This document shows, piece by piece, positions 8,937 to 63,620 of a stretch of 64,000 nt of DNA (positions are counted from its first letter, which is position 1; every line of letters begins with the position of its first letter). Position numbers and translations under genes: made by a program. The stretch is from Eledone cirrhosa. Lineage: Eukaryota. The notes under the pieces are model-generated. The model saw only the letters and a program-made list of their open reading frames with translations. It was not told where the DNA came from and did no database searches. Location: the NCBI GenBank assembly GCA_964016885.1, contig OZ024741.1, positions 97,402,001 to 97,466,000 of the forward strand. The letters run 5' to 3'.

Positions 8937-9125
8937 TGTGGATTGGCAGTATCGGTAGAGGTTCGGACGCCATGCTTTGACGCATATAGTTACGGCCCTT
9001 GCCATTCTGAGTTCAAATCCCGCCGAGGTTAACTTTGCCTTTCATCCTTACGGGGTCGATAAAATAAAGTACCAGTAATGTACTGGGTAATTTTCTGGCC
9101 TTGTGCCAATAGTAGAAACAATTAA
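8937..9125 (+). mobile_element. tRNA-derived SINE with MetaSINE-like core
   Basis: A-box-like TGGCAGTATCGG, B-box GAGTTCAAATCC, core GCCTTTCATCCTTACGGGGTCGATAAAATAAAGTACCAG; many copies in the window. Confidence 0.85.
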
Positions 9126-9908
9126 TGTCTACATATCTTGTTGGCAAATTCTCCCCTTTGGAATATATATTTTGTATGTCTTTAACATTATATCATCATC
9201 ATCATCATCATTATCATATATATATATATATAAATATACACAAATATCATTTCAGCGAGATCGGATTTCGGCTGTGGTCGAAAACAAAGCGAAACGCAAT
9301 ACCCACGTTATGCTAGCAAGCGTTCCATGGACCTAATAAAGACCAGAGCAATACACATAGGTTATAAAGGCCAAACAAACTGAGATGGCGGTCAAGAACC
9401 TATCAACCACCTAAGCCAAAAAGACAAGGCAAGCCAAACAGGTCAAACAAATATATATATATATATACATACATACATTGACAATTACATATACATGTTG
9501 TACTTCAAAAGCATAAGGATGTGACTGTAACAATTGAAACAAAATTACACAGGTAAAGTTGAGAATACGGAAATGATAACTTTGAAATAAAAAAAAAATA
9601 TATAATTGTTTATAGTATAAAAATATTAACACAAGAACAAACAACCTATTTAAAAAAAGACTTAAACTCAAAAAGGAAGGTAGTGAAGACATAAAGTAAT
9701 GAGTATATACATGAGTAAGCGAAAATCAAATGCTCTGCAAAATGCAAACCAGTGTCATAAATCATTAGTGAATATTTATAAAGTATTAAACAAACAACCA
9801 TTAGTACAATGCAAACAAAAGTTAACATCTTTGTAAACACATAACGCATCAGAGCAAGCAATCACGCAGAAGCTTATATCAACGATTAGACAGGTAAGGT
9901 TATTATTA

Positions 9909-10100
9909 TGTAGATTGGCAGTATCGGTAGAGGGTCAGACGCCATGCTTTGCAGCATAGAGGTAGAGTCCCTTACGGCCTGACATCAAATCCCGCCGGGG
10001 TAAACTTTGCCCTACATCCTTACGGGCTTGACAAAATAAAGCACCAGCTAGGCACTGGGGTAATTGCTGGCCTTGTGCCAAAAGTTGAAACAATTATTTT
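9909..10100 (+). mobile_element. SINE copy (same family)
   Basis: Aligns by eye to 8937-9125. Confidence 0.85.
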
Positions 10101-10132
10101 ATAGAAACACAATTTTGATATCCTTGGGCAAT

Positions 10133-10165
<33 letters not shown>

Positions 10166-10170
10166 ATATA

Positions 10171-11165
10171 TAAAGGGAAAAAATGAAACTAAATTTCATT
10201 TCTCACTCTTAGAACGGCTGTTACTTAAATATAAGTTTGTATACGTACATACATATATGTATACAGACGTACAGTAGTATGTATATATATATATATACAT
10301 ACATGCACACATATATATATATGTACGTATGGATTCACCGAACATTTATTATAATGCTCGGTGTGTTTGTAAACAAACATCCCGAATTAAGCCGTACAGT
10401 GTCTAGCAACCATCGTTGCTCATTTGTACAACACTGACAAAGGAACGCTGTACCAGTTTCAAGCTTATTATCTTATCGTCAGCAACGTATAACTTCCTGC
10501 CAGATGGTTGAACGTCTGAAAGTATTTACTTTCCTTATGCATATTAACGGCTGAGCAGCCTAATTTGCATATCGAGTGAGTTAATCGGCCGGGGTACCGA
10601 AAACACACCGAGCATTATAATAAATGTTCCGTGAAACCATACGTACATATATATATATGTGTACATGTATGTATATATATATACATACTACTATATGTCT
10701 GTATACATATATGTATGTACGTATACATACTTATATTTAAGTAACAGCCGTACTAAGAGTGAGAAATGAAATTTCGTTTCATTTTTTCCTTTTATCGTTT
10801 TCGGTACCCCGGCCGATTAACTCACTCGATATACAAATTAGCCTGCTCAGCGGTTAATATGCAAAGGAAAGTAAATAATTTCAGACGTTCAACCATCTGG
10901 CAGGAAGGTATACGTTGCTGACGATAGCTAATAAGCTTGAAACTAGTACAGTGTTCCTTTGTCAGTGTTGAACAAATGATCAACGGTGGTTGCTAAATAT
11001 TGTAAGGCTTAATTCGGGATGTTTGTTTACAAACACACCGAGCATTATAATAAATGTTCGGTGAATCCATACGTACATATATATGTGTGCATGTATTTAT
11101 ATATATATATACATACTACTGTACGTCTGTATACATATATGCATGTACGTATACATACTTATATA
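10171..11165. mobile_element. Family B hammerhead-bearing repeat (~430-bp unit): one copy plus ~1.3 inverted, circularly permuted copies
   Basis: 10171-10604 is the reverse complement of sequence in 10601-11165. The right part repeats AAACACACCG at 10601 and 11031. The junction shares AAAC microhomology. Confidence 0.85.
10913..10953 (+). ncRNA. Minimal type I hammerhead ribozyme (family B); mirror copy 10446-10487 on minus
   Basis: CGTTG-CTGACGA-T-AGC TAATAA GCT-T-GAAA-CTAG-TA|CAGTG; stem III palindrome ACTAGT; GUA cleavage triplet. Confidence 0.85.
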
Positions 11166-11289
11166 TATATACATATATATATATATATACATGTGTGTAT
11201 GTGTGTGTTTATGTGTGTGTGTGCGTGTGTGTGCGTGTGTGTGGGCACGCGTGTGTGTGTGTGTGTATAAACGTGTATCTGGTACCACC

Positions 11290-23345: not shown

Positions 23346-23745
23346 TATTAAATTGTTAAACAATATTCGGTGATTATGTCAAAGAATGATTTTTACAGTA
23401 GATTGGAACCACTTAACGGAAAATAATTTTCAGGAGTTATTAATATAGGTGTTAATAAAATAGATGTTCTTTTGGTCAGTAACATTTTATTATACATATT
23501 TCGGATGTGCAACAGTACGTCCTCATCAGACAAAATATAATGATACATGACATACCCTGAGATGTTAAATGGTTAAGATTTAATCAAGGTAGCCACTACC
23601 TTGATTAAATCTTAACCATTTAACATCTCAGGGCATGTCATGTATCATTATATTTTGTCTGATGAGGACGTACTGTTGTACATCCGAAATATGTATAATA
23701 AAATGTAATTGATCAAAAGAACATCTATTTTATTAATACTTATAA
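23343..23745. mobile_element. Family E fold-back palindrome (arms ~23443-23592 / 23596-23745, 3-nt loop CCA) with a hammerhead in each arm
   Basis: Plus-strand ribozyme 23652-23704: ATTTTGT-CTGATGA-GGACGTAC TGTT GTACATCC-GAAA-TATGTA-TA|ATAAAAT; mirror copy 23484-23536. Confidence 0.9.
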
Positions 23746-23782
23746 TATTTATATATATAAACATATACATATATATATATAT

Positions 23783-27673
<3,891 letters not shown>

Positions 27674-32046: not shown

Positions 32047-32937
32047 GGTGGATTGACAATATCAGTATCGTGTCGGACACCATGATTTGCAGTACTGAGT
32101 TATGACCCTTTATGCTCTGAGTTCAAATCGCGCCAATTTTAGCTTTGCCTTACGAGTCGATATGGTGAATTGGCAGTATCGGTAGAGGGTTGGACACCAT
32201 GCTTTCTAGCATAGTTACGTCCCTTTACAGTCTGAGTTCAAATCCCGCTGAGGTTAACTTTGCATTTCATCCTTACGGGGTCGATAACATAAAGTACCAG
32301 TAATGTAATGGGTAATTGCGGGCCTTGTGCCTAAAGTAGATACAATTATTTTATTAAACGGGCAGTATCGGTAGAGGGTCGGACACCATGCTTTCCAGCA
32401 TAGTTACATCCCTTTACGGTCTGAGTTCAAATCCTGTCGAGGTTAACGTTGTCTTTCATCCTTACGAGGTCTATAAAATAAAGTACCAGTAATGTAATGG
32501 TTAATTGCTGGCCTTGTGACAAAAGTAGAAACACTTATTTTATTAAAAAGACGGTGGATTGGCAGTATTGGTAGAGTCGGACGCCATGCTTTGTAGTATA
32601 GAGTTAGGCTCCTTTATGATCTGAGTCCAAATCCCGCCGAGGTTATCGTTGCCTTTCATTCTAACGGGGTCGATAAAATAAAGTACCAGTAATGCACTTG
32701 GTAATTGCAGGCCTTGTGCCAAAAGTAGAAACAATTATTTTATTAAACAGTATCGGTAGAGGGTCGGACGCCATGCTTTGCAGCAAAGAGTTACGGCCCT
32801 TTATGATCTGAGTTCAAATCCCACCGAGGTTAACTTTGCCTTTCATTCTAACGGGGTCGATAAAAGAAAGTACCAATAATACACTGGGATAATTGCTGGC
32901 CTTGTGCCAAACGTAGAAACAATTATTTTATTAAACA
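32047..32937 (+). mobile_element. Head-to-tail array of five SINE copies
   Basis: CAGTATCGGTAGAG..GAGTTCAAATCC..GTAGAAACAATTATTTTATTAAAC repeated about every 185-195 bp; first copy truncated. Confidence 0.9.
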
Positions 32938-33413
32938 GCAGTAACGTGTTGGTTTCTATGTAAACTACATTTCATTCACCCAAACATATTGTTGGCCTTA
33001 TGCCTAATTCAGAAACACACATATATGTATGAAAGAGATGGCAGCAGCAAAGGGACAAAAGGATAGTGCCATAAATAAACAAGGGAGATAAGAGAAATAA
33101 ACGGGACATAAGTTAAAAACAATTATCGTTATCGCGATTCGAACTTCGAGGACAAACCCTGGATTATTGTATTATTAAACAAGGAAACAACTTTACCATA
33201 ATTTTCATTTAGATTTTGTTCATGTTTCATAACAATATATTTTCTTCATCTCATATATACAAACTGTTTTAGTGGGTTGGGGGTATTTTCGTCAGACAGT
33301 ATCGCATTTCTTTCCTTTATAAGTAAGTGAGGAGTAAGATATATTATTTCCGTTAGATTCCCGGAAATCGACTCGTGTATAGTTACTTTATTCGGAAATA
33401 TAATTCTTGTAAA

Positions 33414-38504: not shown

Positions 38505-39105
38505 GTCAGGTCACCAGTTGGTGCTACTGGTAACATGTATCCCAGTATAACCTGCCTCATGGTCGGGTCGTGGCGACTAAACTGGCAACCCCACCAAAGT
38601 TTCATGGTGGGGAGGGTGACTTTGGACATCCTGAAGGACTAAAAACAAAACCTGTCAAAGGAGCTCTTAAGAATCAATGGCCATCCAAAATCACCGGGAG
38701 AGATGACCCCTTAACCTTTGTGAAGGCAGAATTCTAGGAGAAGGAAAACTCTGATATAACACCTGCAACTCTGATGGTATCCAATGATGTTGACTTATTC
38801 TTCTTTTTGGTAAATATCATCTTGGTTAAGAGAGTGGGACTGGCTTTGTGCAGTGCCTTTGCTCACTATAAAAGCTTCACGCCACAGGCATTGCTTTATA
38901 TCTGGAGATCTCTCTGCACTTGTCGTCACATGGTACCATGGGCCCAGCACTATGTGTCAATAATTGTCACAAGTGTAGTGTTTGTACCAGAGTTTTCAAG
39001 CCGCTGGCTGGACTAAAATGTCACACTCGTTCAGCGCATCGGTAGGGGTTCTCCTACATGGATATAAAGTAGTGGCCGTACTCGAAAACGAGTTGGCAGC
39101 CATCA
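38505..39105 (+). mobile_element. Probable RTE-type LINE 5' UTR fragment
   Basis: Contains CTAGGAGAAGGAAAACTCTGA and GGCGACTAA, motifs I recall from RTE 5' UTRs; bounded by (TA)n. Confidence 0.45.
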
Positions 39106-39107
39106 TG

Positions 39108-39144
<37 letters not shown>

Positions 39145-39149
<5 letters not shown>

Positions 39150-39710
39150 TTGTAATAAAATGAAAACGAAATTTCATTTCTCACTCTTAGTACGGCACTT
39201 ACTTAAATGTAAGTATGTATGTATACGTACATACATATATGTATACATACGTACAGTAGCATGCATATATATATATATACATACAGGTACACATACATAT
39301 ATGTACGTATCAGTTTAGCGGACGCTTATTATAACGCCCGCTTTGTTCGTTTGTAAACAAACTGAACAGCCTGAATTTATGCCGTACGGTGTTAAGGCAA
39401 CCACGTCACCTTTTTGTTCAACACTGACACAGGAACGATGTACTAGTTTCAAGCTTGTTAGCTATCATCAGCACCGTATACCCTTCTGCCAGATGGTTGC
39501 ACGTTCGAAAGTATATACATTCCTTATGAAAAATTAACGGCTGAGCAGCCTAATTTGCATATCGAGTGAGTTCGGCCAGGCGTACCGAGAACGATAAGTT
39601 GTAATAAAATGAAAACGAAATTTAATTTCTCACTCTTAGTACGGCACTTACTTAAATGTAAGTATGTATGTATACGTACATACATATATCTATACAGACG
39701 TACAGTAGCA

Positions 39711-39772
<62 letters not shown>

Positions 39773-39943
39773 CATACAGGTACACATATTGTTCCTGTGT
39801 CAGTGTTGAACAAAAAGGTGACGTGGTTGCCTTAACACCGTACGGCTTAAATTCAGGCTGTTCAGTTTGTTTACAAACTAACAAAGCGGGCGTTATAATA
39901 AGCGTCCGCTAAACTGATACGTACATATATGTATGTGTACCTG

Positions 39944-40009
<66 letters not shown>

Positions 40010-40249
40010 TGCTACTGTACGTCTGTATACATATATGTATGTACGTATACATACATACTTACATTTAAGTAAGTGCCGTACTAAGAGTGAGAAATGAAAT
40101 TTCGTTTTCATTTTATTACAACTTATCGTTCTCGGTACGCTTGGCCGAACTCACTCGGTATGCAAATTAGGCTGCTCAGCCGTTAATTTTCATAAGGAAA
40201 GTATATACTTTCGAAGGTTCAACCATCTGGCAGAAGGGTATACGGTGCT
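39145..40249. mobile_element. Family B hammerhead repeat: ~1.4 tandem copies (period 449) plus one inverted near-monomer
   Basis: ATAAGTTGTAATAAAATG at 39145 and 39594; inversion at ~39790; minus ribozyme 39436-39476 CGGTG-CTGATGA-TAGC TAACAA GCTT-GAAA-CTAG-TA|CATCG. Confidence 0.9.
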
Positions 40250-40474
40250 ATAGTAAGGTAGAATATTAAATATCAAGTGTTAATTGAACAAGTACTTTCA
40301 TGCTTTCGCAATCTTCAGGTTCCTATTAAGTGGTGACAGTCAAGTTTGCAATATTCAACTGTCTGTTGAAAATTGCAAACTTGACTGTCACCACTGAATA
40401 GGAACCTGAAGATTGCGAAAGCATGAAAGTACTTGTTCAATTAACACTTGATATTTAATATTCTACCTTACTAT
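40250..40474. mobile_element. Family F near-perfect fold-back (110-bp arms, loop TGTCT 40360-40364) with a hammerhead in each arm
   Basis: Plus ribozyme 40402-40438: GAAC-CTGAAGA-T-TGC GAAA GCA-T-GAAA-GTAC-TT|GTTC; mirror copy 40286-40322. Confidence 0.92.
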
Positions 40475-40550
40475 TTCATTATAATATCATTATAATTTTA
40501 AAGGATTGTAAATAAAACGAGTAAATCAGACAAATTTGGAATTACTTTTA

Positions 40551-40593
<43 letters not shown>

Positions 40594-40721
40594 GTATATA
40601 ATTGGTGTTGGATACGTAAAGCGTCCGTGTGTGGTAGGCCGTATGAGCACTCGATGCCCTCATAGTGCAGAGTATGATATCAGAGAAAAAAAGAGAATCA
40701 GTGTTGCGAAAGGAATGTATT

Positions 40722-40818
40722 TGACATATTACAATTGTTTCTCGGGTGACCAGCTCGAGGCACGATCGATGTGGTGATCAAACCTGACTCTCAAATTGCG
40801 CGGTCCTCGGATACGTCA
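40722..40818 (-). ncRNA. Hammerhead ribozyme with long (62-nt) stem II domain and CCGAGGA core variant
   Basis: Minus: TGACGTAT-CCGAGGA-[62 nt]-GAAA-CAATTG-TA|ATATGTCA; 8-bp stem I, palindrome ACAATTGT. Confidence 0.7.
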
Positions 40819-40884
40819 TATATATACATATTTATACATACATACGTACATACATATACGTACATACATACATAAATACATACG

Positions 40885-40915
<31 letters not shown>

Positions 40916-41613
40916 TAGAATATTGTTTAAGTGTAATAATTGTTTCTACTTTTGGCATAAGGCCAGCCATATAATATCTGAAACCACTCATTGTAGAACA
41001 AACATAAGATTAAATAATTGGTACACATGAAATATTTCATTGGTCTTTCTTTATCAAATATCTGATTCTGTTGATGTTTACAGAAAGATAGCAGGAATTC
41101 AAATTAAAATATCAACGTGATGCTGTGATATTATTAACATGTAAATAAGAAGTGAAAATGTGATATAGACATTAATTAAATTTTCTCGACCCCAAGTTAG
41201 ATACTTAAGTATCGTTTCCTATAGAATTAAATTCGAACTAGATGTGATTTAAGAGGATATAGTTTCACTGTTCACATAACTGTCTAAGTTATATTTTATG
41301 TATGATGTAAATTCCATTAATTAATTAGTGATATTCTTTCCTCACTGAAAGAACTACTGGCGAACGTATCGCTGCATGGAAGTCACATGGAAGTCACATG
41401 ATACATTCATTACTAACATAGCAGAGAATAAGATTCGCAATTCTTAATCATATGTCATTGATTTCCTCACGTTTGCATCAGCATATTAAAATATAACAAT
41501 CGAAAGTATAAAAGTCTGTCAAATTATAAGAAAATCAACTAAATATGAGTTATCACAAAATATACAAGTTGATTCTTCTAACAATAGTTCCACTACAAAA
41601 TTAGAATTCATAT

Positions 41614-54569: not shown

Positions 54570-56000
54570 TCTATAGGACAGTTTTGGACCGAAATTGGTA
54601 GGCTACAGGCTAGTTAATGTACTTCTGCAACTCTTTGTTGTAAATGTGATGGTGAAATCTGAAGTTCTCGATGGCCCTCAGATCTCTGCTATCGAAGCCG
54701 TCAATCCTCATTGCCAGTGTCTTTGTGGGAGCGAATCACGTTTCTGCTCGATCGACCGATACGTTGAAGATACAGTGCTACGTCTTCAGAGAGAATGAGC
54801 GTTGGTGCACAAATATCTTGACCTCGGTAGCCAGGCAACATCTGCGGTTCCATTTTGGTGACTATCGGCCCCCGGCAAATGAAGGAGCTAACAAACTCCA
54901 TGACATTAGGTCAAATATGAAGCGGAGGATGATCTAGGCCACTGCCGACTTCCATCTGCTTGTCTTCGCCAGCTTATCAGAAGACCAACCTAAACGGCCC
55001 TGAACAGATTAATCGAGTTTCTGAATAGCGTGGTGTCGTTCGTGTACGCTTGGTCGATAAGGTCATATTTCCCGAAAATAACGCCTGAAACTCTCTCAGA
55101 AAATGTGGTTATTAGATAGTCAAAGACACAGTTAAAGAAGTCGGAGGCAGCTACGCAGCCCTGTCTAAACGTTCTGTTGATCGGTAGCCAGTCCGTGTCC
55201 TTCCCGTTCACCCGCATGCAACTCTCGACCCTCTTATAGAGCCTTTGGAACAGGGTGGTGATCTTGAGAGTTGCACTGGTTAGCTTTAGAATTTTACAGA
55301 GGGATGGGTGATCGAACGTTTCGAAAGCCGCCCTGAGGTCGACGAAGGCAACGTAGAAGCTGTGACTTCTGCGAAACTCCCGAGATCTTTCATTAATAAG
55401 AGAAAGGTCAAACTTGTAGTCGGAGTAAGATCATTTTGAGATGAAACCGGATTGATGTTAACGATATCTACTTCCAATGACGAGAGAAGTACGGCTTAGG
55501 TGGACCTTGGTGAAAAGCATTCTGTGATGATGACGATGTTTTGGTATCTTTCATCGGGGTTGTCTAGATCCGGGGACCGGCACGAGGTCTGAGGAGCTTG
55601 TTGAACACCTGACTGAGGTCTTTGTAACTTTCCGCTGCCTCCAGGCGCTCGGCAACTTCCACCTAAAACGTCTCGTGATGGCATTCGGTTGAACCGGCGG
55701 TACTTATTCATATCACCACAAGGTGAGTTTTGCAGCAAATGATAATTACCTCCAGTGGCGTCTGCAGAGAAATCCAGAGCTGATTGGGAAGAGGTCTTTA
55801 GTTTACCAGAACATCATCCGAAGACTGGTTGACGCTTGACTTAAAAAACTTCCTGAGATCGGACTCGTTCTCGGCCAGTGCGCCATGGAATATGCATATG
55901 TATAGGCTATATTGGGAACTCGGAGACAGGATGAGTCAAGGCGGGGTTGGTACATGGTGGTAAGTCCGCCCGCACCCGCAGCCTGAGCTTCAGTGTCGCA
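54570..56000 (-). mobile_element. Decayed LINE RT fragment (RTE-like)
   Basis: RVNGKDTDWLPINRTFRQGCVAASDFFN...AYTNDTTL, i.e. the QG..P.LF and YADD motifs. Confidence 0.8.
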
Positions 56001-59949: not shown

Positions 59950-62900
59950 CATCATCATCATCATCCTTTAACGTCCATCTTCCACGCTTGCATGGGTTTG
60001 GACGGGAATTTTCCCACTTGAGGCAAGATTGGTTGTCTTGCTCGTATAGGACTGTCTGGCGGGTTTTCTACGGCTAGATGCCCTTCCTAACACCAACCAC
60101 ATTTACAGTGTGGACTGGGAGGTTTTTACCGTGTTACCTACACTGCCACATTACAGCGCGGAATGTGTGTTTTTTTTTCGTGACACCTACACGACCTCAT
60201 TTATTTCGGACTGGATGTTGTGGTACCAACATATCTTTACATCGAAAGGGGTGGTGTGGATGGGGTGGGAGTGGTGGGACGGGGGTGTATTTTTGTTAGA
60301 GGTGCCTACTGACTGTAGGTTTCGCTTTGTACTTAAGCAAGGCGGGTCTTCTGTATTACTGTGTAGCGCCAAAGATCTCGGTCCAGTGACATTGTCTTGG
60401 AGAGGTGTAAGTGTGTGAGGTCAGAATTTATCAAGTCGTCCCAGGTTTTTCTGAGTCTGTCGACTCCGTGGCTACCGTCTATTTTTATCGCCCTGCACTT
60501 TTTTTATACAGCTGTCGTCTTTCATGCGCATCAGGTGACCATACCAACGTAGTCTTCACTCGAGTAAACAACATCTGATTCCTCTTATTCCTAATTTCTC
60601 CCTTAGTTCATTTATGCTTTGCCGTTCACGTATATTAGTATTACACATCCAACGGAGCATGCAAGCTTCGTTCCTCTCCAGTCTGCGTATATCCTCTGCA
60701 CACAATGCCCAAGTCTCACTTCCATGTAACATTGCTGATCGCATGCAGGCATCATACAAACTGCCTTTCATTTTTAGAGAGAACCCTTTAGCGGCCAGTA
60801 GTGGTATAAGCTCTCTGAACTTTTTCCAGCCAGTTCTGACTCTAGCTACTGTACTTTCAGAGCATCCTCCACCACTGCTGATTTTGTCACCCAGGTAACG
60901 GAAGGTGTCCACTATTTCTATAGAACCATCTGTGCAATGGAATGAGCTAGTATTCTGTGGGCATTTGCTGCTACTTATTGCACCAGAGCACCGGCCACAT
61001 ATACAATCTATATTCTTAGTTAGCTTACCTGTGATCCCACTACATCATTTATGCAGCCATACTTTGCATTTGGGACATACAATGGAGTTTCTGCCTACTC
61101 CTTTCCTACACACTGAGCATGGCCATTTCCCAGATGGGACCAGTGCCCTATTTTCCTTCCTACAAACTAGAACTTTAGTCTTAGACAGGTTAATTTTAAG
61201 CCCTTTTGATTCTAGGCCATGCTTCCATGTTTGGAATTTCTTCTGTAGTTCAGCCATTGATTCAGCTATGAGCGTTAGATCATCTGCGTATAGAAGTTCC
61301 CATGGGCCGCCGGTCTTGAACACCTCTGTTATAGCCTGAAGAGCAATAATAAATAGTAGGGGGCTAAGGACGGAGCTCTGATAAACACCACCTTTTATGC
61401 TAAACTCTTCACTATATTCGTTGTTAATTCTAACCTTGCTGACTGTTTCTTTATACATGGCATGTATAGCTCTCACAAGCCATTCATCAACACCTTGTTT
61501 TCTAAGGGCCCACCAGATAATCGAGCGGTGTACTCTGTCAAAGGCTTTCTCCAAGTCAACAAAAGCTAAGTATAAGGGTTTACTTTTAACTAGGTACTTC
61601 TGTAGTTGTCGTACAATGAAAAGACCGTCTGTAGTACTTTTACCTGACACAAACCCGAACTGCATTTCATCTAGATCAATTCGCTCTCTGAATAGCTGCG
61701 CTATTACTTTTTCTGTGACTTTCATGACCTGGTCAATTAATTGAATGCCTCTATAGTTTACCCTATCTAGGGCATCTCCTTTACCCTTGTAGCAGTTACT
61801 GATGATGCTGCTACGCCAGTCCTTTGGAACGACCCCATTCTGTATGACTTGGTTTACTATCCGGGTGACCAAAGTGTGTCCCATCCTTCCAGATGCTTTC
61901 AGCATTTCACCAATTATTTCCGAACGCCCAACCGCCTTGCCTGTCTACATGTCTTTGATCGCCTTACTTATTATACTACCTTCAACTTGCACTGCTGGTC
62001 CCTCTATTGGATCGATGTGAGGGAGACTGTCTTTCTCCCAATTATTATCCTCATTTAGTAGCCTTTCGTAGTGACACTTCCAAGCTACCTTCTTATCAAC
62101 GTCAGTGAGGCAAGTACACCATCATCATTAAGGACACACTTCTCCCCGACAATATCACGATTTTCCTTGACACCTTGCCTAGAAATCCTGAACACCTCAC
62201 GTTTTTGGTCCTCGCGTTGTAGAACATGCTTGAACTTTCTTTCCTCTGCTTCCCTTCTTGCGAAGTACACTTGTATCCTAGCTTCCCTCCTGGCCACTTG
62301 ATAGTCTTCTCTACTTCCCCCATCCCGCCATGCTTTCCAAGCCTGCTTTTTGGCCTTGATTGACCCCTCCACCTTACTGTTCCACCACCAAGTTACTCTC
62401 CTCCTGCCTATAGATCTGCTCCAGCCACAGATTTCATCTGTCGCCTTCAGCAGGTTAGCTTTCAGGAATTCCCACTGTTCCTCTATATTGTACGACTCTA
62501 ATTGCACTACCTTACTATCAAAAGCATCAAGTAATATGCTTTTAAATTTATTACTGGCTGTGGGGTCCTTTAGCTTCCATATTTTTCTCCTGAGGATAGT
62601 CCTCTTCTGTTGTCGAGTACGTCTCGTCCTGACTATGAGGTCACTAATTATGAGTCTATCTTGAGAGGTGCATTCTTCATGGTGGAGGGATTTAGTGTTT
62701 ACAACAGACACTCTGTCACGTCTTCTGGTAAGGATATAATCTACCTGGCTGGTGTGTTCCCCTGATCTATAGGTGATCAAGTGATTGTCTCGTTTTTTGA
62801 AGTTAGTGTTACAGATAGTTACGTTATTTGCGTCACACAATTCCAGGATTCTGGAGCCTTCCTCATTTCTAGTACCAAATCCATAGCCTCCATGGATTAA

Positions 62901-63620
62901 GCCATAGCCGTCACAATGTTCTCCAACGTGACCATTTAGGTCGCCAGCGATAACTATGTAGTCACTGTCGGTTATTTGGGAGGTAGGGAGCATTAACGTC
63001 TCATCGAATCTGTCTTTTATAACGCCGGGCAGTTTGGATTGTGGTGCTTATGCAGATATTATTGTCACGGTAGTTCTATTGAGGACAAGTCTTATTTTAA
63101 TTATTTTGTCTTTCACTCTATTTACGTCTATTATCTTATCTGCCCACTTTTCTGCTACCATGAAACCTACTCAACCCAGCCCATTGTCATTTCCCACCCA
63201 GAAAAGCTTATAGCATTGTTCTTTACCCACAATGAATCTAGCAGACCCAACCCTCCACCTGGTCTCTTGAATACAGCAAACATCGACCTCATTACGTTCA
63301 AGCATTTCTACAACTTCGTTAGAGCGACCTTTTAAGGTGCCTACATTCATGGTACCAACTCTGAAGTTTGGGATTGCGTTTGGAGGGTGGGAACGGTGGG
63401 GCGCAGGGAGGGAGATGGGGTCGTGTTACCCATCCGCGGCCGAAATAAAGAGGCGGAGTTCTTGCATTCTCGTCCGGCAGCATGATGTGAATTTGTCTTT
63501 ATCTTTGGCATTGTCACTGAATGTCCAGATTTTTTCTTCTTTTCAAACTCTCCAGAATTCCGTAGTCCATCTATCATATCGAAAGGCAACCAGGTCTAAA
63601 CTTAAGTGATAGCATAGGCC
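59950..63620 (-). mobile_element. Near full-length RTE-clade LINE (APE endonuclease plus RT), frameshifted, with (ATG)n tail
   Basis: 62085-62993 GDLNGHVG..QVDYIL..SQDRL (APE); 61045-61905 YRGIQL..QFGF..FVDLEKAFD..LLYADDL; Cys-rich insert CSVCRKGVGRNSIVCPKC; 60556-60912 FRYLG..HGSETW; (CAT)n at 59950-59965. The 5' end position is approximate. Confidence 0.95.

What the first reader, a model, noticed from the sequence alone, without database searches (positions are those of the whole stretch)
39145..40249. Circularly permuted family B; the inverted copy starts at the ribozyme cleavage site
Seen: the predicted cut is GAAACTAGTA|CATCGTTCC. The inverted sense-strand copy begins at ~39787-39791 (TATTGTTCC...), within a few nt of that site, and runs one unit to TACGGTGCT, just before the CTGATGA core. 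The related locus 10171-11165 uses different permutation and junction points, and stem I differs while keeping its pairing (CGGTG/CATCG versus CGTTG/CAG(C/T)G). Inference: the templates were self-cleaved monomers or circles, and the fold has been conserved.
Basis: partly seen in the sequence, partly recalled or inferred. Interest (0 to 1): 0.75.

Follow-up and report, generated by a model that had tools for sequence, protein, structure and literature searches.

The report
Two-armed Penelope-type hammerhead retrozyme insertion
This is one insertion of a very abundant protein-free repeat that carries a predicted self-cutting RNA motif; across the genome its arms start at the predicted cut site no more often than chance, but they end at two fixed sites, one per arm, which likely records a borrowed Penelope-type retrotransposon enzyme copying the RNA from both sides of a DNA break.

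Summary
The anatomy is real: a 449-nt unit with a type I hammerhead motif, 1.4 units on the minus strand joined head-to-head to 0.93 unit that starts 1-4 nt after the predicted cut. The inference drawn from it is not supported. The family has 25,073 core matches. Of 150 arm 5' ends at other head-to-head junctions, 7 lie within 10 nt of the cut, 7.0 expected; 99 of 152 arms run through the cut. Self-cleaved linear monomers are therefore not the main template. The fixed ends are the 3' ends: two sites about 60 nt apart on (AT)n, paired long+short in 45 of 76 junctions, never long+long or short+short. An RT+GIY-YIG Penelope-like family in this genome shows the same rule. This is a non-LTR retrozyme with a Penelope footprint. 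Circular templates stay unproven: two arrays grew by duplications whose seams are not at the cut. Covariation is one pair in stem I. The right arm's end near the core is likely a later deletion. This scan reported the same reading before on other DNA of this genome.

The parts
39108..39147 (.). (TA)n tract at the left arm's 3' end (likely target microsatellite)
   Evidence: 159 of 187 fixed-site ends are followed by (AT)4
39145..39788 (-). Left arm, sense on minus strand, about 1.4 units: 5' end at u146, 3' end at the 'long' site u296
39145..39593 (-). One full 449-nt unit (u297 round to u296)
   Evidence: folds with z -6.6 against shuffles, much of it from the self-complementary AT/GT tract
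39435..39477 (-). Predicted type I hammerhead: 6-bp stem I, core, 4-bp stem II behind a U-U mismatch, 2-pair helix III in a 6-nt palindrome, GUA triplet; predicted cut 39441|39440
   Evidence: no Rfam hammerhead match among the 150 of 160 rows shown
39786..39791 (.). Head-to-head (5'-5') junction, u146 of the left arm against u2-u5 of the right arm
39788..40249 (+). Right arm, 0.93 unit, u2/u5 to u420; lacks the expected 'short' end, likely trimmed by a later deletion
   Evidence: deletion inferred
40250..40553 (.). Separate head-to-head insertion ('family C'): terminal repeat of an RT+GIY-YIG Penelope-like element, hammerhead-like cores at 40318(-) and 40406(+); right arm ends at its short site on (AT)n, left arm truncated against the finding
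10170..11168 (.). Related locus (subfamily B2): left arm 10170-10604, 1.00 unit, long end; right arm 10601-11168, 1.30 units, short end; cores at 10482(-) and 10918(+)
   Evidence: L146

Best explanation
This is one head-to-head insertion of a high-copy, non-coding hammerhead-motif repeat (a non-LTR retrozyme) that was likely copied into an (AT)n tract by a Penelope-like RT/GIY-YIG enzyme acting in trans. Shown: two arms joined 5' to 5', 3' ends at two fixed internal sites used one per arm, (AT)n flanks, scattered 5' ends, read-through of the cut site. Inferred: the enzyme cuts both DNA strands; each 3' end primes reverse transcription, one at u296 and one at about u234, on the same RNA or on RNAs of one source locus; each cDNA stops at a variable point and the two are joined with little or no overlap. 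The template is continuous across the cut: a re-ligated circle (about 0.5) or an uncut multimer. The start of this right arm near the cut is likely chance, and its end at u420 likely a later deletion shared with the neighbouring family C insertion.
For: 76 head-to-head against 3 tail-to-tail junctions in 127 loci. 45 long+short, 0 long+long, 0 short+short of 76; the other 31 have an end elsewhere or at a locus edge. Subfamily B2: 7 long+short, 0 long+long, 1 possible short+short of 15 pairs (hand count). Family C, which lies downstream of RT+GIY-YIG frames, gives long+short in 8 of 10 pairs and no like pairs (hand count). 159 of 187 fixed ends abut (AT)4. The two arms share a rare variant in 12 of 41 pairs (11 of 40 without the B2 locus) against 0.5% of 427 control pairs. 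PMC11167929: a purified PLE protein cuts and extends both strands of AT-rich DNA, starts at two internal RNA sites that define the 'tail', and does not need hammerhead cleavage. PMC8557442 and PMC3846280: inverted head-to-head copies with the tail often on one end only.
Against: No autonomous partner sharing sequence with this unit was identified among 50 GIY-YIG loci or 91 unpaired 5' flanks. Cleavage, expression and circles were not observed. 29 of 41 arm pairs share no rare variant. Only 6 of 12 multi-unit loci are more alike within than between loci. Two arrays (L255, L155) carry two-unit duplications with seams away from the cut, so arrays also grow without circles. No empty target allele was seen, so (AT)n as a pre-existing target is inferred. 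The deletion at 40249/40250 is inferred from two missing ends only.
Confidence: 0.8

Rival explanations
1. Templates were self-cleaved linear monomers, so arms start at the cut.
For: The right arm here starts at u2-u5; 4 of 150 other junction ends lie in u1-10. A few true run-offs cannot be excluded (upper CI of the stop rate 0.10).
Against: 7 of 150 within 10 nt against 7.0 expected; 99 of 152 arms cross the cut; both arms cross in 31 of 76; 0 of 30 in B2 (hand count). Two of the three sampling motifs do not span the cut, so cut-started copies could be sampled.
Confidence: 0.05
2. Same Penelope-type insertion, but the templates are uncut linear read-through transcripts of tandem arrays that grow at the DNA level; no circle is needed. 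The 5' hot spot at u273-278 would be a transcription start.
For: L255 and L155 show two-unit duplications with seams at u139-218 and about u276-335, not at the cut. L039 (6.4 units) shares its haplotype with one longer array, L249 (8.9 units), that could be its linear parent. PMC11167929 found unprocessed RNA the dominant substrate. 10 of 150 5' ends fall in 6 nt at u273-278 (scan p 0.011).
Against: The catalytic core is unchanged across six subfamily consensuses (85-97% alike); the four changes in the motif fall at N7, loop II and one kept stem I pair, which suggests cleavage matters, though weakly. A palindromic helix III is reported to cleave in tandem arrays (PMC4209133, PMC7229834), which would cut linear multimers, yet no stops are seen at the cut.
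Confidence: 0.4
3. A DNA-level satellite or fold-back element; the inversion comes from DNA repair or hairpin self-priming, and the hammerhead is a passenger.
For: DNA-level duplication of units occurs. PMC3846280 discusses self-priming for palindromic PLE junctions.
Against: Fixed, polar 3' ends, strict long+short pairing, 76:3 orientation bias, and junctions whose two 5' ends usually differ, which a fold-back would not give.
Confidence: 0.05
4. A LINE (APE-RT) mobilises the unit as a SINE, with L1-type twin priming.
For: An APE-RT LINE-like frame lies in the window at 61045-63047; 5' inversions by twin priming are known for L1 (recalled).
Against: In twin priming the two arms copy adjoining, non-overlapping parts of the RNA (recalled); here arms overlap and 58 of 152 exceed one unit. 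The same ends occur on a GIY-YIG element.
Confidence: 0.07

Closest known systems
Metazoan non-LTR retrozymes (PMC7229834: passages and Discussion read; bioRxiv 10.64898/2026.07.22.740005: parts 1-3 of 5 read)
   Same: Non-coding tandem units of a few hundred nt, each with a type I hammerhead motif and short palindromic helix III; thousands of copies; co-occurs with PLEs, which both papers propose as the mobiliser.
   Different: Circular RNA and cleavage were shown there and not tested here. In the parts read, neither paper describes head-to-head arms or fixed paired 3' ends.
EN+ Penelope-like elements: pLTR, inverted 5'-truncated copy and 'tail' (PMC11167929: parts 1-2 of 4 read; PMC8557442, PMC3846280, PMC4209133: passages read)
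   Same: Head-to-head inverted copy, tail on one end, two internal start sites, AT-rich or (TA)n targets, hammerhead in the repeat.
   Different: No ORF. The tail is about 60 nt against 30-40 nt. The whole element is the repeat. No coding partner with shared sequence was identified.

Membership tests
Non-LTR retrozyme | Short non-coding unit in tandem copies | tested here: met
   449-nt unit; arrays up to 8.9 units; no frame of 110 aa or more over 39145-40249
Non-LTR retrozyme | Type I hammerhead motif in each unit | tested here: met
   Core and three helices; 97.8% of 852 cells paired in 71 distinct sequences; sample partly selected on the motif; not matched by Rfam in the rows shown
Non-LTR retrozyme | Self-cleavage in vitro | not testable with these tools
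   Needs a transcription assay; 8 of 9 predicted Xenopus elements did not cleave in the bioRxiv paper
Non-LTR retrozyme | Expressed as circular RNA | not testable with these tools
   No RNA reads were available to test it
Non-LTR retrozyme | Dispersed high copy number, no LTR/PBS architecture | tested here: met
   10,391 exact and 25,073 degenerate core matches, reversed controls 0; dispersed loci
Penelope-like element (autonomous) | RT + GIY-YIG ORF | tested here: not met
   No ORF in the unit; PLE-protein hits in family loci show no fixed link to the arms
PLE-mobilised non-autonomous element | Head-to-head inverted 5'-truncated copy | tested here: met
   76 head-to-head, 3 tail-to-tail
PLE-mobilised non-autonomous element | Two fixed 3' ends (tail on one end) | tested here: met
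   45 long+short, 0 like pairs of 76
PLE-mobilised non-autonomous element | AT-rich or microsatellite target | tested here: inconclusive
   159 of 187 ends abut (AT)4; no empty allele seen
PLE-mobilised non-autonomous element | Sequence shared with the pLTR of an autonomous partner | tested here: inconclusive
   None among 50 of about 10,600 GIY-YIG candidate loci

The most novel reading that the evidence does not exclude
A dimeric Penelope enzyme loads two reverse transcriptases about 60 nt apart on one small RNA circle made by the hammerhead; both run round it from opposite ends of a double-strand cut and often stop at one hairpin loop (u273-278). The strict long+short rule would then be the genomic record of an asymmetric two-primer mechanism and of rolling-circle retrotransposition, which is proposed in print but, in the papers read, not shown.
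Probability: 0.35. Interest if true: 0.7.

Novelty: new member of a known kind. Interest (0 to 1): 0.42.

Why it matters
Which enzyme moves animal retrozymes, and on what template, is open. This family gives exact start sites (u296, about u234), a strict one-of-each rule, and intact-looking PLE frames in the same genome, so an in vitro test on linear against circular RNA can be set up directly. It also shows that one arm starting at a cut site is no evidence of cleaved templates.

Tried and rejected
Rfam scan: only microsatellite-driven miRNA matches in the 150 of 160 rows shown, no hammerhead family. Sequencing runs: no RNA holder listed. Contigs of four runs laid on 38600-40960 gave no joint across the insertion, so no empty allele; the repeats fragment the contigs. 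A recalled Pfam accession for a PLE domain was not in the library; GIY-YIG was used. Search for the autonomous partner: 50 GIY-YIG loci and 91 unpaired 5' flanks gave no fixed link; family B hits near GIY-YIG frames vary in spacing and strand, and three of those loci were chosen for being close. Alternating units (L255, L039, L252) were first taken as dimer or trimer circles; polarising variants put the seams of L255 and L155 away from the cut, and L039 does not alternate strictly, so they are not used as evidence for circles. 5' peaks at u82-90 and u121-138 are post hoc, and the second borders the AT/GT tract where mapping is soft. The 0 of 500 shuffle result for covariation was discounted: it reflects one inherited change. 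Look-ups of earlier findings by place (near) and by sequence returned nothing.

Full report
Anatomy. The unit is 449 nt (39145-39593), sense on the minus strand, with a type I hammerhead motif whose predicted cut falls between 39441 and 39440. I number the unit from the first base after the cut (u1). The left arm (39145-39788) is about 1.4 units, from u146 round to u296, and ends on a (TA)n tract. The right arm (39788/39791-40249) runs on the plus strand from u2-u5 to u420. The arms meet 5' to 5'. The locus at 10170-11168 has the same shape in a second subfamily (B2): 1.00 unit plus 1.30 units.

The family. A 36-nt core motif has 10,391 exact matches in the 3.0-Gb genome and a degenerate form 25,073; reversed controls give 0. 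For a sample I pooled the first 100 listed matches of three motifs on contig C1, one spanning the cut and two not, into 111 clusters and fetched 100 of them. I added the 30 best BLAST loci and the two window loci, and dropped 5 duplicate or overlapping loci, leaving 127. Arms were mapped against subfamily references with (AT)n runs shortened. Adjacent arms were head-to-head in 76 cases, tail-to-tail in 3 and same-strand non-colinear in 10.

Leaving out the locus itself, 7 of 150 junction 5' ends lie within 10 nt of the cut (7.0 expected); in the C1 census alone 5 of 114 (5.3); over all arms 9 of 237 (11.1). As a stop rate, 7 stops against 131 passages gives 0.051 (CI 0.021-0.102) against a baseline of 0.046. 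In B2, 0 of 30 ends lie there (hand count). 99 of 152 arms cross the cut, 58 are one unit or longer, and both arms cross in 31 of 76 loci. The start of this arm at the cut is what chance gives in about 1 arm in 20, and the template was continuous across the cut. The 5' ends are not quite uniform: 10 of 150 fall at u273-278 (post hoc scan p 0.011), and 3 of 30 fall at the equivalent place in B2 (hand count). That place is the loop and 3' arm of the last predicted hairpin before the long end. It may be a stall site or a transcription start; this is unexplained.

What is fixed. 3' ends cluster at u284-297 ('long', mostly u296) and u224-244 ('short'). Among 76 head-to-head loci, 45 are long+short, none long+long, none short+short; 31 have an end elsewhere or at the edge of the fetched DNA. 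B2 gives 7 long+short, no long+long and one possible short+short among 15 pairs (hand count). 159 of 187 fixed ends abut (AT)4. The two arms share a rare variant in 12 of 41 pairs (one of them the B2 locus, where subfamily variants inflate the count) against 0.5% of 427 same-subfamily control pairs; 29 share none. At least some arm pairs therefore come from one RNA or one source locus.

Link to Penelope-like elements. The genome has about 10,600 GIY-YIG candidates, 150 scored, and long frames with RT and GIY-YIG domains. The hairpin right of the finding (40250-40553) belongs to a second high-copy hammerhead-like family, C, found downstream of such frames in L209, L210, L213, L218 and L220. Its head-to-head copies are long+short in 8 of 10 pairs, with no like pairs (hand count). 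In print, a purified PLE protein cuts and extends both strands of AT-rich DNA, starts at two internal RNA sites that define the 'tail', and works without hammerhead cleavage (PMC11167929, parts 1-2 of 4 read). Inverted head-to-head copies with the tail on one end are typical of PLEs (PMC8557442, PMC3846280; passages). No coding partner that shares sequence with this unit was identified.

The right end of this locus. By the pairing rule the right arm should end at the short site, about 260 nt further, and the abutting family C left arm should end at its long site; both stop at 40249/40250. One later deletion explains both (inference). The end beside the core is thus unlikely to reflect ribozyme processing.

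The ribozyme. In 71 distinct 67-nt sequences, 97.8% of 852 cells pair; only one pair (stem I, third from the core) changes on both sides, G-U 35, U-G 17, A-U 16; stems II and III show no compensatory change. The sample was partly selected on the motif and the change is inherited, so this is one or two events. Across six subfamily consensuses (85-97% alike, 129 of 468 columns variable) the catalytic bases are unchanged and the four changes in the motif lie at N7, loop II and that pair: consistent with selection, weak alone. Helix III is two pairs in a palindrome, the form reported to work as dimers (PMC4209133 passages; PMC7229834 passages). Activity is untested.

Circle or uncut multimer. For circles: no stops at the cut although the motif is kept, near-identical arrays with private variants (L039, L042, L080), and circRNAs shown for other animal retrozymes (PMC7229834, Discussion read). 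Against: only 6 of 12 multi-unit loci are more alike within than between; L255 and L155 carry two-unit duplications with seams away from the cut; the L039 haplotype occurs at one other, longer array that could be a linear parent. I put circles at about even odds.

Comparison and novelty. It files as a non-LTR retrozyme on every feature testable here; cleavage and circRNA were not testable. It works like a PLE insertion but is not an autonomous PLE. A PLE origin of retrozymes is already proposed (PMC7229834; bioRxiv 10.64898/2026.07.22.740005, parts 1-3 of 5 read). Four searches listed no paper whose title or abstract start reports head-to-head, long+short arms for a retrozyme or this family; PMC6962438 (passages) only counts hammerhead matches in a squid genome. 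I read no supplements, and those of PMC7229834 and the preprint may list related families; subscription papers are not searched. The host group is not established here. Earlier notes of this scan give the same reading for arrays elsewhere in this genome; I stated my reading before opening them, and they are not independent support.

Verdict. Observation partly confirmed; headline inference not supported; new member of a known kind, with a clear and testable Penelope footprint. Interest 0.42.

Noticed in passing
window 40250-40553: Family C: head-to-head terminal repeat of an RT+GIY-YIG Penelope-like element with its own hammerhead-like motif; many copies have both 5' ends at one place about 40-50 nt upstream of the core, a possible fixed transcript start (sample biased by the query).
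   Followed up: partly
window 23480-27560: Another family: hammerhead-like cores at 23529(-) and 23659(+) head-to-head, next to a 558-nt tandem array with a long inverted block.
   Followed up: no
window about 38505-39104; L049, L075, L108, L147: A separate high-copy repeat that ends at one fixed point and is joined to AT-rich parts of this family in four other loci; kind not determined.
   Followed up: partly
unit u273-278 (window about 39163-39168): 5' ends pile up at the loop of the last hairpin before the long end: 10 of 150, and 3 of 30 in B2; stall site or transcription start.
   Followed up: partly
L255:983-2973; L155; L252; L039: Higher-order (two- or three-unit) repeats inside arrays; in L255 and L155 the seams are away from the cut. 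L039 differs from its sister array L249 by an A>G change in 6 of 8 unit copies.
   Followed up: partly
L207:2809-5622, L208:1988-4519, L206:1275-4562: Long open RT(+GIY-YIG) frames of 938, 844 and 1096 aa from at least two young Penelope-like families; candidate mobilisers.
   Followed up: partly
window 61045-63047 and 54993-55430: Broken LINE-like RT and endonuclease frames on the minus strand.
   Followed up: no
window 32172-32943; 8937-9131; 9909-10103: A SINE-like repeat of about 190 nt, in four tandem copies at 32.2-32.9 kb.
   Followed up: no
runs X5, X6 laid on window 39364-39645: Contigs of two other organisms carry this repeat family, so it is not confined to this species.
   Followed up: no
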